A DNA stretch of 45,853 bases. Source: a virus. Its lineage: Duplodnaviria > Heunggongvirae > Uroviricota > Caudoviricetes. The translations under genes were made by a program, and so were the position numbers. Below, piece by piece: positions 2,570-29,108 of this stretch. The notes beneath the pieces are model-generated. The model had not been told where the DNA came from. It saw only the letters and a program-made list of their open reading frames with translations, and made no database searches. The DNA is taken from positions 1 through 45,853 of the IMG/VR virus record IMGVR_UViG_3300014890_000015; one strand, written 5' to 3'. Every line of letters starts with the position of its first letter. Within the stretch, counting starts at the first letter, position 1.

Positions 2570-3192
2570 TTTTGAATCACCGTTGTTGCATAGGAATAAA
2601 TAAAAGGGAGTTTTACATATTTCTGGTCAATGGCATCTTTCAGAAAATAGCCTATACCATCACCATATTCTGGTATCTGAATAGAAAAAACACTGTCCGA
2701 TACAGTCACGCTCACATCAAAAGTGTGCTGCAACGGCGGGTCTATTCCGTTTTTCCCATGAATGAACCGTGCCACACGGCGCTTTAACCAGTCAATGCAG
2801 AAATGCGAACCGTCAGCCTTATAAAAATTCCAAGTTAATATTCGCTTGAAATAATCATCCGGAACATACGATGCCTGCCCCGGAACATAATTCCGCATTG
2901 CCGCATAAGGGATTGTATTGTATTCAATGGTATCGTATGCGCCGCGTGCAATAGCCTCCTCGGAAACCTGTAGTAAAGGCCTTTCAACGCCATAAATCCC
3001 GAGAGCAATCCAGTCCAGCAATTGCCCGGTTATTGATTCCGATGTCCAGCATGGCAATGCCAGATTGTTGAGTGAATCGAGGTATTCCTGAGCAATTTCA
3101 TTGTATGCATCAAAGAACGCAACAACATTCGGATCATCTCTGTACTGCACAAACGGATTAGCAGGGAGAATTTTTTCAGTCAGATATTGCAT
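2566..3192 (-). CDS. baseplate/tail protein (P2 gpI / Mu gp48-like position)
   Basis: ORF follows the J-like gene and precedes the tail fibre; start taken at internal ATG 3192 to limit overlap with J; start uncertain. Confidence 0.4.
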   Translation of the reverse strand: MQYLTEKILPANPFVQYRDDPNVVAFFDAYNEIAQEYLDSLNNLALPCWTSESITGQLLDWIALGIYGVERPLLQVSEEAIARGAYDTIEYNTIPYAAMRNYVPGQASYVPDDYFKRILTWNFYKADGSHFCIDWLKRRVARFIHGKNGIDPPLQHTFDVSVTVSDSVFSIQIPEYGDGIGYFLKDAIDQKYVKLPFIYSYATTVIQK

Positions 3193-4402
3193 ACTTGTTA
3201 ACTTGAACCTGTGATACCACCGTCGAAAAATAGGAATAGGTATCGCCATAAACCAGGCTTGTGTCTTTTGCCGGAGGAACAATATGGCCATTAATGCCAA
3301 TGCTCACACTGATTGTTGAGATCAACGTCGCATCAACCAACAATCTGACGGAACTGGTAAAAATATCCTGGATTCGCAGCAGATTTATCGGGTGTCCGAC
3401 TTCAATAGAATTGATGTAATCAGCAACGTTTTGCTGCACAGCCATAGCAATACCCGCCGGATCAACATAATCATCAGATACAGTGTTCCAGGTGATTAGC
3501 ACCATGACGTTTTGTGATGACGGGATAACGAACGGCACCTGATAAACATCTGGCGAAACGGTTATTGAAACCGTGCGTTTTTCCACTGCCGCACCAGATG
3601 GATTGCTAACATCGTTGGTCAGTTTCGAAATATCCGGTACAGATTTGTAAATAGCATAAGCCACATCATACGGATCACCGCCACCAACAACCGCAACCCA
3701 TTTCCCCAGCGACGACTGCCGGAAAGAAATCAGGTTTTCTCGCACACCGCTTACTGATTTGAGCATCGCTTTAAAGCAATCCGGTGTTCCCTGCACACCA
3801 AACATGCCGGACTCCATGACTTCGGCGCGGTAAGATGCCCACGTTTGCGCCTCCTGACCTGGCATCCCTGCGGTAAGGTTCGTGCATTTTACAGGCTGAT
3901 CTTTGGGTACCGATGTAATGACCTGCGTTACGGTTCCTTCCGGTACAGCCCATGAGCCTGACGTTGTGGCCACACAGTAGACTGGCTCAGTCTGCCCGCT
4001 TTCCGGCACCACCGTATCGCGGGAAACTGCATACTGGTAGTTGCCGTCACCGACAACAAATCCTTTAGGGATACCAAACCCCGGCAACGCCTCAAACACC
4101 ACGTATACCGCCGTATTTGTACTTAATCCCTTCTGTGCTCCATAAATGTTTCCGAGTTGCATCAGTAACGGAATATTTGCGCCGTATGGGCTTACGGAGT
4201 TAATAAGGTCCACCCGCGCCTGGTCTATTAATGCCAGCGCCCCGACTGCCGTGCTGGCAAGGTCAGTAATAAGCCCCGCCGGAAGGTTGGCTGTATATCC
4301 AGGTACTTTTTCAGCAACTCTGATGATAAGATTTGCAAGCAAATCATTGGGTGGCGTAGGCTGCGCCCCCGCACTGGTCATAGTAATTGGTATTTCTGAC
4401 AT
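3176..4402 (-). CDS. baseplate J-like protein
   Basis: 408 aa in conserved V-W-J-I-fibre order of P2/Mu-type baseplates. Confidence 0.5.
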   Translation of the reverse strand: MSEIPITMTSAGAQPTPPNDLLANLIIRVAEKVPGYTANLPAGLITDLASTAVGALALIDQARVDLINSVSPYGANIPLLMQLGNIYGAQKGLSTNTAVYVVFEALPGFGIPKGFVVGDGNYQYAVSRDTVVPESGQTEPVYCVATTSGSWAVPEGTVTQVITSVPKDQPVKCTNLTAGMPGQEAQTWASYRAEVMESGMFGVQGTPDCFKAMLKSVSGVRENLISFRQSSLGKWVAVVGGGDPYDVAYAIYKSVPDISKLTNDVSNPSGAAVEKRTVSITVSPDVYQVPFVIPSSQNVMVLITWNTVSDDYVDPAGIAMAVQQNVADYINSIEVGHPINLLRIQDIFTSSVRLLVDATLISTISVSIGINGHIVPPAKDTSLVYGDTYSYFSTVVSQVQVNKYAISD

Positions 4403-4414
4403 ATTTACTCCATT

Positions 4415-4440
4415 AAAAAACCCGCTTTCGCGGGTTTTTT
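4415..4440. terminator. bidirectional rho-independent terminator-like hairpin (A6-CCCGC-TTTC-GCGGG-T6)
   Basis: Perfect GC stem flanked by A-run and T-run, between cargo gene stop (4443) and J start (4402). Confidence 0.6.
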
Positions 4441-4442
4441 AC

Positions 4443-5561
4443 TTATTCAACCTCTTCTAAACTACTCGCTCTGGACCCTCGGCGGAAATTATCATCATTT
4501 TTAACATACTCGTATGAATCCAGAATCAAACCAGATATGCGAAGTATATCTTCCGGATTAGTTATATGTATCCTTTTACCATCCGTATCAAGTCGAGCTC
4601 GTCTTATTTCATTCAACTGAACTTCACTAAGCGAAATAGGTAAAGTTATAAATGAAGATTTTTTATCATAAAATCTTAACAGCCATCTATTAGTTTTACC
4701 ATTCAATAGTACACCAAAATATGACTCAGTATCTTTATATTCTATATTATCTTCTGTTTGTATGATTTGTTTTACCCTTTCAAATAGCTCCAATTCTTTG
4801 GCTGTGGTTATTATGTTGGGGTTTTCTTCATCAACAATGGCGTTATTAACTTGTGTATCCGTTGCATCATTTTCTTTAGTTTGCTCTACCGGTTGTGTAG
4901 ATAGCCCGGAAACCACCATTGCGCTAACAGCGCGCTCAACGGCCTGTTTAACTAATGGAGTCACGAACTCAAGAAATCTCTGATTAAGTTGTCTCTCAAT
5001 ATTTGAACGACTAGCAACATATCGAACAAACTCCAGATCAACTTCACGAAGACTAGAACTGATTGTTTTAGTAAATGAATTCAAATAAACACTTTCTTCA
5101 GCCAGTGTCCGTAAAGCCTCTGGTTTGAATTTATCATAACGAAAACGAAATAATTGTGTAATATCGGAGTGAGTTAGAGAATCCATTCTTATTTTTAAAA
5201 ACGGCGTTGAATCCATTATGTTTTTTTGTTTCAAATCCGTAAAAAAACGCCATTCAACACCATTTGTAATGGCTGATATAGTAACTTCCGGTGTTGAATT
5301 AAAATATCTTGATAGCTGTGGGCAGTGATTATCAATTTGTTCTGAAAACGATTTCGCCTCAATGAACATCACAGGAACATCATGACAAAATAAAGCGTAA
5401 TCAACCCGTTCATTAGCCTTAACCCCGGGGAAGTCAGCACTATACTCAGCTTTGACTTTTCTTGGATCATACGGAGTAAAACCAAGAATATCTAGTAATG
5501 GCATAATGAGTGCTTGTTTTGTCGTTTCTTCAGTTGTACAAAACACCCCATTTTGCAACAT
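4443..5561 (-). CDS. HsdR_N-like / PD-(D/E)xK nuclease-domain protein; moron, candidate phage-defence or exclusion gene
   Basis: N-terminal ~110 aa shows the HsdR N-terminal nuclease pattern (TEETTKQALIMPLLD..LGF, DYALF, VMFIEAK, Q..RY, TNGVEWRFF); C-terminal ~250 aa unassigned; gene visibly AT-rich versus flanks; own leader upstream and terminator downstream. Confidence 0.6.
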   Translation of the reverse strand: MLQNGVFCTTEETTKQALIMPLLDILGFTPYDPRKVKAEYSADFPGVKANERVDYALFCHDVPVMFIEAKSFSEQIDNHCPQLSRYFNSTPEVTISAITNGVEWRFFTDLKQKNIMDSTPFLKIRMDSLTHSDITQLFRFRYDKFKPEALRTLAEESVYLNSFTKTISSSLREVDLEFVRYVASRSNIERQLNQRFLEFVTPLVKQAVERAVSAMVVSGLSTQPVEQTKENDATDTQVNNAIVDEENPNIITTAKELELFERVKQIIQTEDNIEYKDTESYFGVLLNGKTNRWLLRFYDKKSSFITLPISLSEVQLNEIRRARLDTDGKRIHITNPEDILRISGLILDSYEYVKNDDNFRRGSRASSLEEVE

Positions 5562-5750
5562 GCTCTGTGTGTATTTTTAACTTATTTGCAAAATTTTCCA
5601 TACTTGTCTCCTCCATGGTAACAATATGTATTTTGCAAATCCGAAATAATATATGTCAATATGCTCCAGCTTAGAAAATTACTCGCCCCCCTAAAATATC
5701 TCTCTACAGCACTCCAAACCAAGGTAAAAGTTTTATCATAAAACTGTGAT

Positions 5751-6098
5751 TCATACCGGCACCTGCGCCCGGTAACTGGTCCCATTAAAAAACACAACAT
5801 CGATGTTATAGGTGGGGTTCGCTGCCCCATCTACCTTTGAAATTGCCAGCGATGCAAAATACCCGGCAAACTGTTGCTGAACCATGTTCACATAGTAGTC
5901 TGGGTAAATCTGCTGCACGATGCACTGCTGCGCAGGAATACCGTAATTCGCGTAAAACGGCGACTCCCCCAATCCCAGCTTTAACGTCTGAATGAGCGTC
6001 GTCAACCAGCCGTAGGAGAAATCACCGTTGGCGTCAGATTCTACTGCAACCCATTTTTTGTTGCCGTTCGCGTCGGTGACGCGGCCCCATGTTCTCAT
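5751..6098 (-). CDS. putative baseplate wedge protein (gpW/gp25-like position)
   Basis: 115 aa from ATG 6098 with GGTGAGGG RBS; position after spike-like gene; assignment by size and synteny only. Confidence 0.35.
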   Translation of the reverse strand: MRTWGRVTDANGNKKWVAVESDANGDFSYGWLTTLIQTLKLGLGESPFYANYGIPAQQCIVQQIYPDYYVNMVQQQFAGYFASLAISKVDGAANPTYNIDVVFFNGTSYRAQVPV

Positions 6099-6105
6099 CG
6101 TGCCC

Positions 6106-6204
6106 TCACCACCATCGGATCTGGCCAACAAAATAACCAGACGCCAGAATCAGAAAGACCAACCAAATAAGCAAAAACTTCCAAGTGGATAATTTTTCAG
6201 CCAT
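6106..6204 (-). CDS. small hydrophobic ORF (32 aa, MAEKLSTWKFLLIWLVFLILASGYFVGQIRWW)
   Basis: ATG preceded by GGGAGA RBS at 8 nt; one predicted TM helix; stop overlaps RBS of downstream gene; absent from ORF track (below 60 aa). Confidence 0.25.
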   Translation of the reverse strand: MAEKLSTWKFLLIWLVFLILASGYFVGQIRWW

Positions 6205-6274
6205 AACTCGAATCTCCCGAATCAGTTTGCTAAAATCAAACACGACTTCTCCTTGCCTTATTCAAGGTCAGAAA

Positions 6275-6307
6275 CAAAAAGCCCCGAACTGTTCCAGCAG
6301 CCGGGGC
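6275..6307 (-). terminator. terminator-like hairpin inside baseplate operon
   Basis: GCCCCG...CGGGGC stem followed by T-rich tract on the minus strand, downstream of spike-like gene. Confidence 0.3.
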
Positions 6308-6349
6308 TTTCGCTTTATGAGATAGAATTTAAAGTGAAATGAACCGGAA

Positions 6350-7063
6350 TTAACCCTGATTTGGTTGCTTCGACGTGATCGTGCTGCCGCCGCTTTGAAC
6401 GCCAGTCACATCGTGGCTGTGGCCGCTGGCACTGACACCTTTTATCACCGCGTCATTTTGCACAGTAAGCGGGCCAATCAGCGAAGCGGTTGTATCCTTC
6501 ATCTGGGCTTTGTCCTGGACGATTGGACCGTTGAGGTGAATTTTCCCGTTCAGGAAAATATCTTCGGCCTCGAGGTAAACAGCTTTCGACTTTTGCCTGA
6601 TTTCTTCCGGTGCCACCGTTACCGAGCTACTGCCGTCCTCTGTTTTGAGGATCGCGCCATCCGGACCGTACAAAACGATTTTTTGCGGATCTTCGTCGGA
6701 CCAGTCCTTGTTTGCCAGTGGCACGAAAAACAGTGGAGTGAGCGACATCGAGTAAGAGAGCGTCGCCATACCGGTTCCCAATCCGGACACACCGCGCAGG
6801 GATACATCAGCGGCAATTGTTACTCCTCGATCGCCCGGCTGTATCGGGTAACGAATATACGGGAATGTGGCGACAGGGATTGTTATCTGCGGAAAGTTGA
6901 TCCCCTCCGGCAGCATATCAAACTGAACTGTCACTATCTGCCCGCTGACACCGACAACATGGCAGGGCAATTCGCGGCCTTTAAGCTCGGCTTGCTGGTT
7001 ACCAGAACTGGTCATCATCTCCGACAGTGTTCGGAGAAACGGTAATTTTTGAGCGTTTGACAT
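6350..7063 (-). CDS. baseplate spike / assembly protein V-like
   Basis: 237 aa, Gly/Ser-rich C-terminus; 1-nt TAATG coupling with upstream gene; position in baseplate module. Confidence 0.45.
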   Translation of the reverse strand: MSNAQKLPFLRTLSEMMTSSGNQQAELKGRELPCHVVGVSGQIVTVQFDMLPEGINFPQITIPVATFPYIRYPIQPGDRGVTIAADVSLRGVSGLGTGMATLSYSMSLTPLFFVPLANKDWSDEDPQKIVLYGPDGAILKTEDGSSSVTVAPEEIRQKSKAVYLEAEDIFLNGKIHLNGPIVQDKAQMKDTTASLIGPLTVQNDAVIKGVSASGHSHDVTGVQSGGSTITSKQPNQG

Positions 7064-28604: not shown

Positions 28605-29090
28605 TTAGTTTTGCTGTTCTATTTTAAGCTTGATAGTTTCATACAAAACAATAGTTGCGCCTGTTTTACATAATTCCCGACTGTCATACGCACGAGACCA
28701 ATAACACAACCAATTTTCAAGCTCTTCTCGTGTATAAATTTTACAGGCCAGCCCCTCAGCCATCTCCACAACTTCATCGCCTGGTGCGGTTAATTCGTAT
28801 CCATTTAACAATAAAAAAACCGCACCAGCCATCATTGCTGTGCGCTTGTTTGCATTGGCAAATGGATGATTCTGAATCAGACTTTCAATCAATACCGATG
28901 CCAGTACAAACATGTCGTTGGTTTGCTCATACCATCGAACCATACTGGGACGAGACTGAGAAGAGCTTAAATTATCAACACTCAGCACACCAACAGGTTC
29001 ATCTGGTGTTTGAAGCTCAATTAAAAGGCGATTAATTTCAGTAAGATCATCAACCGAAAGGTAGTGCACTCCTTCAACAATCTCAGCCAT
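28605..29090 (-). CDS. Doc-like (Fic/Doc family) toxin
   Basis: HPFANANKRTAMMAG matches the Doc H-x-F-x-(D/N)-(A/G)-N-K-R signature; 9-nt gap after an upstream small ORF. Confidence 0.65.
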   Translation of the reverse strand: MAEIVEGVHYLSVDDLTEINRLLIELQTPDEPVGVLSVDNLSSSQSRPSMVRWYEQTNDMFVLASVLIESLIQNHPFANANKRTAMMAGAVFLLLNGYELTAPGDEVVEMAEGLACKIYTREELENWLCYWSRAYDSRELCKTGATIVLYETIKLKIEQQN

Positions 29091-29108
29091 AGAGCACAAT
29101 ACCCATCA

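What the first reader, a model, noticed from the sequence alone, without database searches (positions are those of the whole stretch)
4403..5750. AT-rich single-gene moron with nuclease fold inserted between baseplate genes
A 1.35-kb segment, visibly lower in G+C than its neighbours (by eye, not computed), sits between the W-like (5751..6098) and J-like (3176..4402) baseplate genes, which are normally adjacent and coupled. It carries a ~190-bp AT-rich leader, one gene (4443..5561) and a clean bidirectional terminator (4415..4440). The protein starts with an HsdR N-terminal / PD-(D/E)xK-type domain (DYALF ... VMFIEAK ... TNGVEWRFF) joined to ~250 residues I cannot assign. Standalone nuclease-domain cargo in prophage structural operons is a known pattern for anti-phage or exclusion systems, but this location and domain pairing is not one I can name.
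Basis: partly seen in the sequence, partly recalled or inferred. Interest (0 to 1): 0.8.

Follow-up and report, generated by a model that had tools for sequence, protein, structure and literature searches.

The report
Prophage cargo nuclease between baseplate genes
A swappable 1.3-kb slot between two baseplate genes of an E. coli Rac-like prophage carries a stand-alone nuclease from a large, untested family of temperate-phage genes that usually sit beside the phage repressor, so it is a reasonable but unproven candidate anti-phage gene, and this copy has a frameshift at its start.

Summary
Window 4408-5739 is a low-GC cassette (35.5% against 47.9% for the window; GC3 0.26 against 0.42-0.63). 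It lies exactly between the stop of the W-position gene and the start of baseplate J in a Rac-SA53-like E. coli prophage.

It is one of several interchangeable cargoes. Of 91 complete E. coli genomes with this baseplate block, 25 carry this gene and 66 carry other genes, mostly antirepressors.

The protein has three parts:
- an HsdR-type PD-(D/E)xK nuclease whose D, ExK and QxxxY residues are 99-100% conserved in 124 diverse relatives
- a helical region and an acidic linker
- a C-terminal domain with a YdhG/YjbR/T4 MotA-CTD-like fold that no Pfam model covers

It has no motor domain, no methylase and no conserved partner gene, so the database name "type I restriction endonuclease" is wrong.

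Relatives are widespread in temperate phages. In 26 of 80 species loci the gene lies directly downstream of a CI-like repressor, the lambda rexAB position.

I found no characterised member and no PADLOC match. A lysogen-expressed anti-phage nuclease is the best reading, but it is inference.

The window's allele has a reproducible 2-nt frameshift that removes the normal start and ribosome-binding site, so it may be impaired.

The parts
4408..5739 (.). Replaceable cargo cassette (moron) between the W-position gene and baseplate J
   Evidence: Homology to Rac-SA53, pPE4, STEC308, ETEC1706 and E. coli W prophages ends at 4407 (4425 in ETEC1706) and resumes at 5740 (5751 in E. coli W). GC is 0.355 against 0.479 for the window. 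25 of 91 related E. coli prophages carry it and 66 carry other cargo.
4443..5561 (-). ORF of the cargo gene as it stands in the window (372 aa, stop codon included); an N-terminally shortened allele of a 386-aa protein
   Evidence: PHROG 4225 full-length match at E = 1.8e-143. The exact 372-aa sequence was read on only 2 contigs, both apparently from one sample, whereas a 386-aa form is on at least 1000 contigs.
5199..5561 (-). HsdR-type PD-(D/E)xK nuclease domain. Window residues 1-121; catalytic E11, K15, D54, E68, K70, Q82, Y86, which are E25, K29, D68, E82, K84, Q96, Y100 of the 386-aa form
   Evidence: Pfam HSDR_N 4e-14 and HSDR_N_2 2e-9. Foldseek hits to HsdR fragment 3h1t (prob 0.99), EcoR124I HsdR and BpuSI. 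These residues are 99-100% conserved in 124 diverse sequences. The QxxxY motif of HsdR/RecB nucleases is described in PMC2475608.
4899..5186 (-). Helical middle region (386-aa form residues about 140-235)
   Evidence: AlphaFold2 model: helices 145-152, 161-185, 190-199 and 206-234. pLDDT is 80-86 for residues 131-160 and falls to 42-61 for 161-230. No family match.
4824..4898 (-). Variable, acidic, predicted disordered linker
   Evidence: pLDDT < 50 for residues 225-254. The least conserved and most gapped columns of the family alignments.
4479..4820 (-). C-terminal alpha/beta domain with a YdhG / YjbR / T4 MotA-CTD-like ('double-wing') fold; putative nucleic-acid or ligand recognition domain
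5546..5554 (-). Frameshift site: AAAATGGGG here, AAAAATGGGGG in the OkiPb01675 copy aligned here
   Evidence: Alignments. All 3 indels in 4.6 kb against OkiPb01675 fall at 5546-5691. The same allele appears in the Logan assembly of SRR1920966.
5599..5614 (-). Ancestral translation start (ATG 5601-5599) with ribosome-binding site GGAGGAG (5614-5608). In the window it opens only a 23-codon ORF that ends at TGA 5532-5530
   Evidence: Sequence read. PGAP calls the 386-aa gene from this ATG in OkiPb01675. Homology to the Stx-prophage copy ends at this ATG (query 74-1199).
5630..5659 (-). Sigma-70-like promoter candidate (TTGACA, 18 nt spacer, CAAAAT)
   Evidence: Best consensus match in the region, 10 of 12. 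A consensus match only; the region has 10 such sites against 5.8 expected.
4414..4441 (.). Intrinsic terminator hairpin with flanking A and T runs (could act in both directions), 12 nt upstream of the J start codon
   Evidence: Bases 4408-4425 are shared with the LprI-family cassette of ETEC1706, which has the same orientation.
5751..6098 (-). Upstream neighbour, the 'W-position' baseplate-block gene
   Evidence: PHROG 7986, unknown function, E = 1.7e-63; no Pfam hit. W-like only by gene order: hub, V-like spike, this gene, J.
3176..4402 (-). Downstream neighbour, baseplate J
   Evidence: Pfam Baseplate_J 7e-8; PHROG 6 baseplate wedge 3e-37.

Best explanation
Window 4408-5739 is one of several interchangeable accessory cassettes in a hotspot between the W-position gene and baseplate J of a Rac-SA53-like, Q-antiterminated E. 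coli prophage.

Its single gene belongs to a large temperate-phage family of stand-alone nucleases. The parts are an HsdR/RecB-type PD-(D/E)xK + QxxxY catalytic domain, a helical region, a floppy acidic linker, and a C-terminal YdhG/YjbR/MotA-CTD-like domain. There is no translocase motor, no methyltransferase and no conserved partner gene.

The most likely role is a gene expressed in the lysogen that cuts incoming phage or other foreign DNA. In this model the variable C-terminal domain supplies target or trigger recognition and the N-terminal domain does the cutting.

Shown here: the cassette nature, the composition, the domain architecture, the intact and conserved active site, the single-gene status, and the repeated placement in repressor operons and lysogeny modules.

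Inferred: expression in the lysogen, DNA as the substrate, the anti-phage effect, and the way self DNA is spared.

In this window the gene carries a 2-nt frameshift that disconnects it from its ribosome-binding site and removes 14 N-terminal residues, so this copy may be weak or dead.
For: Cassette and hotspot. Foreign composition. Terminator. Promoter-like site. A Q antiterminator in the same prophage would let late transcription read through the terminator into J; that step rests on established lambdoid biology, not a test here.

Nuclease:
- Pfam and PHROG matches and fold matches to HsdR and BpuSI.
- E25, K29, D68, E82, K84, Q96 and Y100 are 99-100% conserved in 124 sequences that are at most about 50% identical to each other.
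- The motif definition is from PMC2475608.

C-terminal domain:
- It is less conserved than the nuclease domain, as expected for a specificity or sensor module.

Context, lysogeny-side placement:
- Directly after a CI-like repressor in Klebsiella phage KpF5, Citrobacter koseri and Morganella.
- In 26 of 80 species-level loci, 18 of them with a gap of 50 nt or less.
- Between repressor and integrase in the Streptococcus phage and apparently the Lacticaseibacillus phage (annotated only as hypothetical), and just downstream of HTH regulators in the Clostridium phage.
- Beside HicAB in a Porphyromonas phage.
- After Q in an Stx2 prophage.
- In tail modules of Yersinia and Phocoenobacter prophages, and apparently in Avibacterium and Gallibacterium, where the upstream ORF looks like a tail or baseplate protein by eye only.

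No conserved neighbour other than the repressor.
Against: - No family member has been tested, as far as the held literature shows.
- No PADLOC v2 model matches.
- Nothing here shows how host and prophage DNA would be spared.
- The promoter is only a consensus match.
- The window's allele is frameshifted at the 5' end, and 3 of 80 species loci have split or truncated copies, so the gene is dispensable and sometimes decays.
Confidence: 0.55

Rival explanations
1. Abortive-infection or toxin-type nuclease. The protein is kept inactive in the lysogen, and a phage cue sensed by the C-terminal domain switches it on. It then degrades DNA indiscriminately, host DNA included, and the infected cell dies. 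This is still defence, but by suicide rather than by selective restriction.
For: No methylase and no recognisable modified-base reader to tell self from non-self. The domain layout of effector, flexible linker and variable domain resembles sensor-effector defence proteins. One relative lies beside a HicAB toxin-antitoxin pair.
Against: No antitoxin-like or other conserved partner gene. No direct evidence of toxicity. The top fold matches include DNA-binding proteins (MotA CTD) and predicted ones (YjbR family) rather than protein sensors.
Confidence: 0.2
2. A nuclease used by the phage itself, for example in recombination, replication-intermediate processing or host-DNA breakdown during lytic growth, and not a defence gene.
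For: PHROG places the family under 'DNA, RNA and nucleotide metabolism'. Some copies lie near replication or recombination genes.
Against: - It is present in only 25 of 91 otherwise near-identical prophages, so it is not needed for the phage life cycle.
- It usually sits in the repressor operon or lysogeny module, which in established temperate-phage biology is expressed in the lysogen.
- It is retained next to the repressor in what looks like a degraded Citrobacter koseri prophage remnant.
- Its composition is foreign and it has its own terminator.
Confidence: 0.1
3. A selfish, homing-like endonuclease gene that spreads between phage genomes by cutting sites that lack it, with no benefit to the host.
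For: The same ORF is found at many different positions in unrelated phages. Between the E. coli baseplate copy and the Stx-prophage copy only the ORF itself is homologous.
Against: - The baseplate slot is never empty and holds unrelated cargo without any nuclease.
- The position after the repressor is kept across many genera.
- At 386 aa with three regions it does not resemble known homing endonuclease families.
- No target-site duplication or intron/intein context was seen.
Confidence: 0.07
4. A genuine type I restriction endonuclease subunit, as the RefSeq product name says.
For: The product names 'type I restriction endonuclease' and 'subunit R'. A weak local NCBIfam hit to PRK11448 (19 bits against a 729-bit cut-off).
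Against: The protein has 386 aa and only the HSDR_N domain, with no helicase or translocase domains. No HsdM or HsdS gene lies next to it here or in 77 other loci. No methylase was found among the window ORFs scanned.
Confidence: 0.02

Closest known systems
Nuclease domain of type I restriction HsdR subunits (EcoR124I HsdR; Vibrio vulnificus HsdR fragment 3h1t) and of the type IIG enzyme BpuSI
   Same: Same Pfam families (HSDR_N, HSDR_N_2). Same fold by Foldseek. Same catalytic D...ExK plus QxxxY motif set.
   Different: No SF2 motor, no C-terminal HsdM-contact domain, no HsdM/HsdS partners and no fused methyltransferase. Instead it has a helical region and a YdhG/YjbR-like C-terminal domain.
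Single-chain type IV (modification-dependent) restriction enzymes such as the PvuRts1I/AbaSI and MspJI families (comparison from general knowledge, not tested here)
   Same: One polypeptide, a PD-(D/E)xK-type nuclease joined to a separate beta-rich recognition domain, no cognate methylase, and carried on mobile DNA.
   Different: Those enzymes use SRA-like base-flipping readers. The domain here matches YdhG, YjbR/DUF419 and MotA CTD instead. No dependence on DNA modification is shown.
Exclusion genes in the slot downstream of the lambdoid repressor: lambda rexAB, 933W stk, HK022 nun (from general knowledge)
   Same: Relatives of this gene occupy that slot, 9-50 nt after a CI-like repressor on the same strand, in 18 of 80 species loci, and within 300 nt in 26 of 80.
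   Different: The protein type differs (nuclease rather than ion channel/sensor, kinase or transcription terminator). The window's copy is not in that slot; it is in the tail block under its own signals.
Morons and accessory or defence hotspots inside late or tail operons of temperate phages (HK97/HK022 morons from general knowledge; P2 hotspot within the tail genes, PMC13586616)
   Same: An extra gene with foreign base composition, its own terminator and a promoter-like site, present in some close relatives only, embedded in a structural operon.
   Different: A different phage type and junction (W-position gene / J of a Rac-SA53-like phage). The usual cargo here is an antirepressor cassette on the opposite strand.
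T4 MotA C-terminal 'double-wing' DNA-binding domain and the YjbR/DUF419 and YdhG-like families
   Different: Sequence identity is 10-14%. No Pfam or PDB sequence match. DNA binding by this domain is inferred, not shown.

Membership tests
Type I restriction enzyme HsdR subunit | N-terminal PD-(D/E)xK nuclease domain with motifs I-III and QxxxY | tested here: met
   Pfam HSDR_N 4e-14. D68, E82, K84, Q96 and Y100 are 99-100% conserved. Motif definition from PMC2475608.
Type I restriction enzyme HsdR subunit | SF2 helicase/translocase motor domains in the same polypeptide | tested here: not met
   372/386 aa; only HSDR_N and HSDR_N_2 match in Pfam. The model shows no RecA-like domains. NCBIfam PRK11448 scores 19 bits against a 729-bit cut-off.
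Type I restriction enzyme HsdR subunit | Adjacent hsdM and hsdS genes | tested here: not met
   The neighbours are baseplate genes. No conserved neighbour in 77 loci. No methylase among the window ORFs scanned.
Moron (accessory gene unit in a phage operon) | Present in some, absent from other closely related phage genomes, at a precise junction | tested here: met
   25 of 91 E. coli prophages with flanks at least 90% identical carry it. Breakpoints are at 4407/4408 and 5739/5740.
Moron (accessory gene unit in a phage operon) | Base composition different from the surrounding genes | tested here: met
   GC 0.355 against 0.479; GC3 0.255 against 0.42-0.63.
Moron (accessory gene unit in a phage operon) | Own promoter and own terminator | tested here: inconclusive
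   The terminator hairpin is strong. The promoter is only a 10-of-12 consensus match. No transcript data.
Type IV (modification-dependent) restriction enzyme | Nuclease without a cognate methyltransferase | tested here: met
   Single-gene unit.
Type IV (modification-dependent) restriction enzyme | A recognised modified-base reader domain (SRA, EVE/YTH/ASCH, Mrr-N and similar) | tested here: not met
   The C-terminal domain has no Pfam match. Its fold matches are YdhG, MotA CTD and YjbR/DUF419.
Type IV (modification-dependent) restriction enzyme | Cleavage depends on DNA modification | not testable with these tools
   Needs enzyme assays on modified and unmodified DNA.
Defence systems catalogued in PADLOC-DB v2.0.0 | Match to any of the 5027 models | tested here: not met
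   No hit at E <= 1 for the window protein or at E <= 0.01 for the 386-aa form.
PHROG 4225 ('endonuclease') | Full-length profile match | tested here: met
   E = 1.8e-143; residues 5-356 against profile positions 19-357 of 357.

The most novel reading that the evidence does not exclude
This family could be a previously undescribed, very widespread single-protein immunity module of temperate phages. It would be a motor-less, methylase-less HsdR-type nuclease that is co-transcribed with the prophage repressor. A MotA-like double-wing domain would recognise a feature of invading DNA (a modification, a structure or a sequence class) or a phage-made trigger. That would make it a restriction-like defence with a new recognition module, found in Proteobacteria, Firmicutes, Bacteroidota and Actinobacteria phages.
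Probability: 0.3. Interest if true: 0.65.

Novelty: new variant of a known kind. Interest (0 to 1): 0.45.

Why it matters
If the intact protein protects lysogens, it would add a compact, one-gene nuclease system with a new recognition domain to the catalogue of phage-borne defences. It would also explain a gene that sits in the classic rexAB slot of many lambdoid prophages and in the lysogeny modules of Gram-positive phages.

It would correct a misleading product name ('type I restriction endonuclease') attached to a gene seen on well over a thousand contigs.

The baseplate slot described here holds either an antirepressor cassette or this nuclease. It is a clean natural system for studying how cargo is exchanged inside an essential tail operon.

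The experiment is straightforward, because intact and naturally frameshifted alleles both exist.

Tried and rejected
- **PADLOC v2 scan** of the window protein, the 386-aa form and the alternative cargo proteins: no hits.
- **PDB sequence searches** with the protein and with two family profiles: only chance-level hits.
- **Pfam scan of 22 C-terminal domains** at E <= 10: noise only.
- **Pfam scan of ten longer relatives** to look for domain swaps: only HSDR_N, plus one TerD fragment that is probably a gene-call fusion.
- **Foldseek of the whole model against PDB:** weak E-values (> 0.01) because the model is multi-domain. It was useful only for the HsdR and YdhG leads.
- **BFVD search with the C-terminal domain:** weak.
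- **AFDB50 library:** not available.
- **Rfam on 4300-6400:** only sub-threshold matches driven by the terminator.
- **Repeat search for attachment-like or duplication signatures:** only one exact 12-nt direct repeat near both ends, which may be chance.
- **Literature searches** (PF04313, DUF450, HSDR_N, DUF5655, HsdR + prophage + defence, lysogeny module, WP_000426901, and the DefensePredictor supplements): no characterised member. Brenes & Laub 2025 is not held.
- **SNIPE** (membrane nuclease, PMC13190303) was considered and dropped. From the abstract it is membrane-bound, which does not fit this predicted soluble architecture; no homology test was run.
- **First attempt to scan genomes** with a 40-sequence alignment failed for lack of conserved stretches. 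A smaller alignment worked.
- **Assembly artefact as the cause of the frameshift** was rejected, because an independent Logan assembly shows the same bases. A platform-specific homopolymer error cannot be fully excluded.
Full report
**1. The observation**

The window has an ORF at 4443..5561 on the minus strand (372 aa). It lies between a baseplate J gene (3176..4402) and a 115-aa gene (5751..6098) that occupies the W position of the hub / V-like spike / W / J order.
- J is supported by Pfam Baseplate_J at 7e-8 and PHROG 6 at 3e-37.
- The 115-aa gene has no Pfam hit and matches PHROG 7986, of unknown function.
- The segment 4403-5750 has 35.5% G+C against 47.9% for the window. The gene's GC3 is 0.255 against 0.42-0.63 for six neighbouring tail genes.
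- The hairpin at 4414-4441 folds at -17.4 kcal/mol (z = -4.8; none of 200 shuffles fold as well) and has A and T runs on its two sides.
- A sigma-70-like site (TTGACA, 18 nt spacer, CAAAAT) lies at 5659-5630. It is only a consensus match.

**2. What the surrounding element is**

The window is a Rac-type lambdoid prophage of E. coli with a contractile-tail module.
- Regulatory and recombination genes: integrase, RecE, RecT, a RacR-like repressor, YdaT and a Q antiterminator.
- Lysis and structural genes: holin, terminase, portal, tape measure, hub and baseplate.
- Its closest deposited relatives are Escherichia phage Rac-SA53 and a record named Actinobacillus phage pPE4. Both are 95.6% identical over the baseplate flanks but differ in between.

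**3. The slot is a cargo hotspot**

Homology to five sister prophages stops at window 4407 (4425 in one) and resumes at 5740 (5751 in one). That is, it stops at the J start and resumes at the stop of the W-position gene.

Among 5426 complete E. coli genomes, 91 carry this baseplate block at 90% identity or more.
- 25 have the same nuclease cassette at this position.
- 66 have other cargo of varying length: an AntA/AntB antirepressor with one or two hypothetical genes on the opposite strand, an LprI-family gene, or combinations of these.
- In the genomes listed and the five loci examined the slot was never empty.
- Two further variable points lie close by, at about 6094-6098 and 6216-6271.

The prophage has a Q antiterminator. 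By established lambdoid biology, that would let late transcription pass the cassette's terminator and reach J; this step is inference.

**4. The protein**

The window's ORF is a shortened allele. In the OkiPb01675 copy aligned here, the gene starts 40 nt further upstream, at the equivalent of ATG 5601-5599, which has a GGAGGAG ribosome-binding site six bases before it. All 25 complete genomes carry 2-3 extra bases in this segment. The product is 386 aa.

The AlphaFold2 model of the 386-aa form (mean pLDDT 74) has four regions:

| Region (386-aa numbering) | Character | Confidence |
|---|---|---|
| 1 to about 135 | nuclease domain | mostly confident (block means 73-93; a dip at 126-129) |
| 140-235 | helical | mixed: block means 80-86 for 131-160, then 42-61 |
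| 236-260 | acidic linker, disordered | pLDDT < 50 |
| 262-375 | C-terminal domain | confident |

- **N-terminal domain.** It matches Pfam HSDR_N and HSDR_N_2. By fold it matches the HsdR fragment 3h1t, EcoR124I HsdR and the BpuSI nuclease domain.
- **Active site.** I aligned the protein with 123 full-length representatives from clusters at 50% identity. E25, K29, D68, E82, K84, Q96 and Y100 are 99-100% conserved. These are the PD-(D/E)xK motifs plus the QxxxY motif that defines HsdR/RecB-type nucleases (PMC2475608). The active site is intact and under selection.
- **What is missing.** There is no motor domain, and no methylase or specificity gene nearby. The RefSeq name 'type I restriction endonuclease' is therefore not justified.

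**5. The family and where it lives**

The family is large:
- 1510 proteins at E <= 1e-5 in the 90%-clustered collection.
- 1762 representatives of 50% clusters at E <= 1e-10, and 292 at E <= 1e-30, mostly 345-400 aa.
- It equals PHROG 4225 (E = 1.8e-143).
- A strict two-motif scan of one genome per species found 272 species.

Every context I examined closely was a prophage or phage:
- Directly downstream of a CI-like HTH-S24 repressor on the same strand, in Klebsiella phage KpF5, Morganella, and what looks like a decayed Citrobacter koseri prophage remnant that keeps just the repressor and this gene.
- Between repressor and integrase in a Streptococcus pneumoniae phage and apparently a Lacticaseibacillus phage (whose genes are annotated only as hypothetical), and just downstream of HTH regulators in a Clostridium phage.
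- Beside HicAB near the tail genes of Porphyromonas phages.
- After Q, on the opposite strand, in an E. coli Stx2 prophage (78% DNA identity, confined to the ORF).
- After Arc/Mnt-type repressors inside the baseplate block of a Yersinia prophage.
- Between the tail chaperone and the tape measure, with a Bro-N gene, in Phocoenobacter.
- Next to AntA in Salmonella.

In 80 species-level loci, the upstream same-strand neighbour is CI-like in 26, and in 18 of those the gap is at most 50 nt. This is a lower bound from a home-made profile. No other neighbour, upstream or downstream, is conserved. The unit is therefore a single gene whose commonest home is the repressor operon, which is the lambda rexAB position (the lambda comparison is from general knowledge).

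**6. How it most likely works**

- **Shown:** the cassette nature, the architecture, the conserved active site, the single-gene status, and the lysogeny-side placement.
- **Inferred:** the protein is made in the lysogen and cuts incoming phage or other foreign DNA, or is switched on by infection. The variable C-terminal domain would provide recognition and the HsdR-type domain would cut.

I cannot tell direct restriction from abortive infection, and nothing here shows how self DNA is spared. I put the defence reading at about 0.55. Within it, direct restriction-like cutting is somewhat more likely than suicide. A lytic-cycle housekeeping nuclease, a selfish homing-type gene and a true type I subunit are less likely, for the reasons given under rivals.

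**7. This particular copy**

The window reads AAAATGGGG at 5554-5546 (minus strand), where the OkiPb01675 copy aligned here reads AAAAATGGGGG.
- The upstream ATG then opens only a 23-codon ORF. The long ORF restarts at ATG 5561 with no obvious ribosome-binding site, and it lacks the first 14 residues of helix 1.
- The exact 372-aa protein was read on only two contigs, both apparently from one sample. A 386-aa form is on at least 1000 contigs.
- An independent Logan assembly of SRR1920966 shows the same bases, so this is not an assembler artefact.
- All three indels in 4.6 kb against the nearest complete genome fall within about 150 bp at the 5' end and leader of this gene.

I read this as a probably genuine mutation that weakens or inactivates the gene. 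Three of the 80 species loci also carry split or truncated copies.

**8. Comparison with what is known, and novelty**

- The catalytic domain is a member of the HsdR_N family, but the protein is not a type I enzyme, because the motor and partner tests fail.
- It resembles single-chain type IV enzymes in layout, but it lacks a known modified-base reader.
- Its genomic behaviour matches morons and the defence hotspots described inside the tail genes of P2-like phages (PMC13586616), and relatives sit in the rexAB slot.
- I found no PADLOC v2 model and no experimental paper (and the searches listed under Tried and rejected). Subscription papers such as Brenes & Laub 2025 could not be read.

I rate it a new variant of a known kind: a plausible, testable, widespread single-gene nuclease candidate, neither a strange object nor a proven system. 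Interest is 0.45, held down by the lack of functional evidence, the abundance of similar candidates, and the frameshift in this copy.

Noticed in passing
window 6106-6286: A 181-bp stretch matches, at about 84% identity, a mostly unannotated spot in roughly 860 complete E. coli genomes and many Stx phages. It covers a 45-aa ORF (6106..6243, minus strand) that looks hydrophobic by eye, and the start of a 27-nt inverted repeat (6260-6328). In phage CP-1639 the matching spot is a 138-nt ORF immediately upstream of Rz.
   Followed up: partly
window about 6094-6098 and 6216-6271: Two more variable points lie in the same baseplate block. A Rha-family regulator gene is inserted after the W-position gene in E. 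coli ETEC1706. E. coli W has a replacement of about 500 bp further on.
   Followed up: partly
window 28605-29099 (minus strand): A 164-aa Fic/DOC-family ORF (Pfam E = 1.7e-11) lies in the early/nin region of the prophage. It may be another accessory or toxin-type gene.
   Followed up: no
window 4410-4421 and 5782-5793: An exact 12-nt direct repeat, CCATTAAAAAAC, lies just inside the J-side cassette boundary and again 42 bp inside the W-position gene. It could be a recombination microhomology or chance.
   Followed up: no
L021 (Yersinia), L023 (Salmonella), L025 (Phocoenobacter); L001, L002, L006-L008 (E. coli): The nuclease gene keeps turning up beside antirepressor-type genes: Arc/Mnt upstream, AntA divergent, Bro-N downstream. 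An Ant cassette is the alternative cargo at the window's own slot. The slot looks like a P22 immI-type region embedded in the tail operon (the P22 comparison is from general knowledge).
   Followed up: partly
L009-L012 (Citrobacter koseri): What appears to be a decayed prophage remnant next to phoPQ keeps a CI-like repressor and the nuclease gene with few other phage genes. The same arrangement recurs in four assemblies, which suggests the pair has been retained by the host.
   Followed up: no
window 5686-5691: The G-run in the cassette leader is G6 in the window and G7 in OkiPb01675. The match lengths in other genomes (1350 or 1351 against 1348 here) suggest the run varies among them. It lies upstream of the promoter-like site.
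   Followed up: no
PP818812.1 (L002): The record named 'Actinobacillus phage vB_Apl-pPE4' is 95.6% identical to E. coli Rac-type prophage DNA over the baseplate region. That is unexpected for a phage of a Pasteurellaceae host and may reflect an induced E. coli prophage or a mislabelled record.
   Followed up: no
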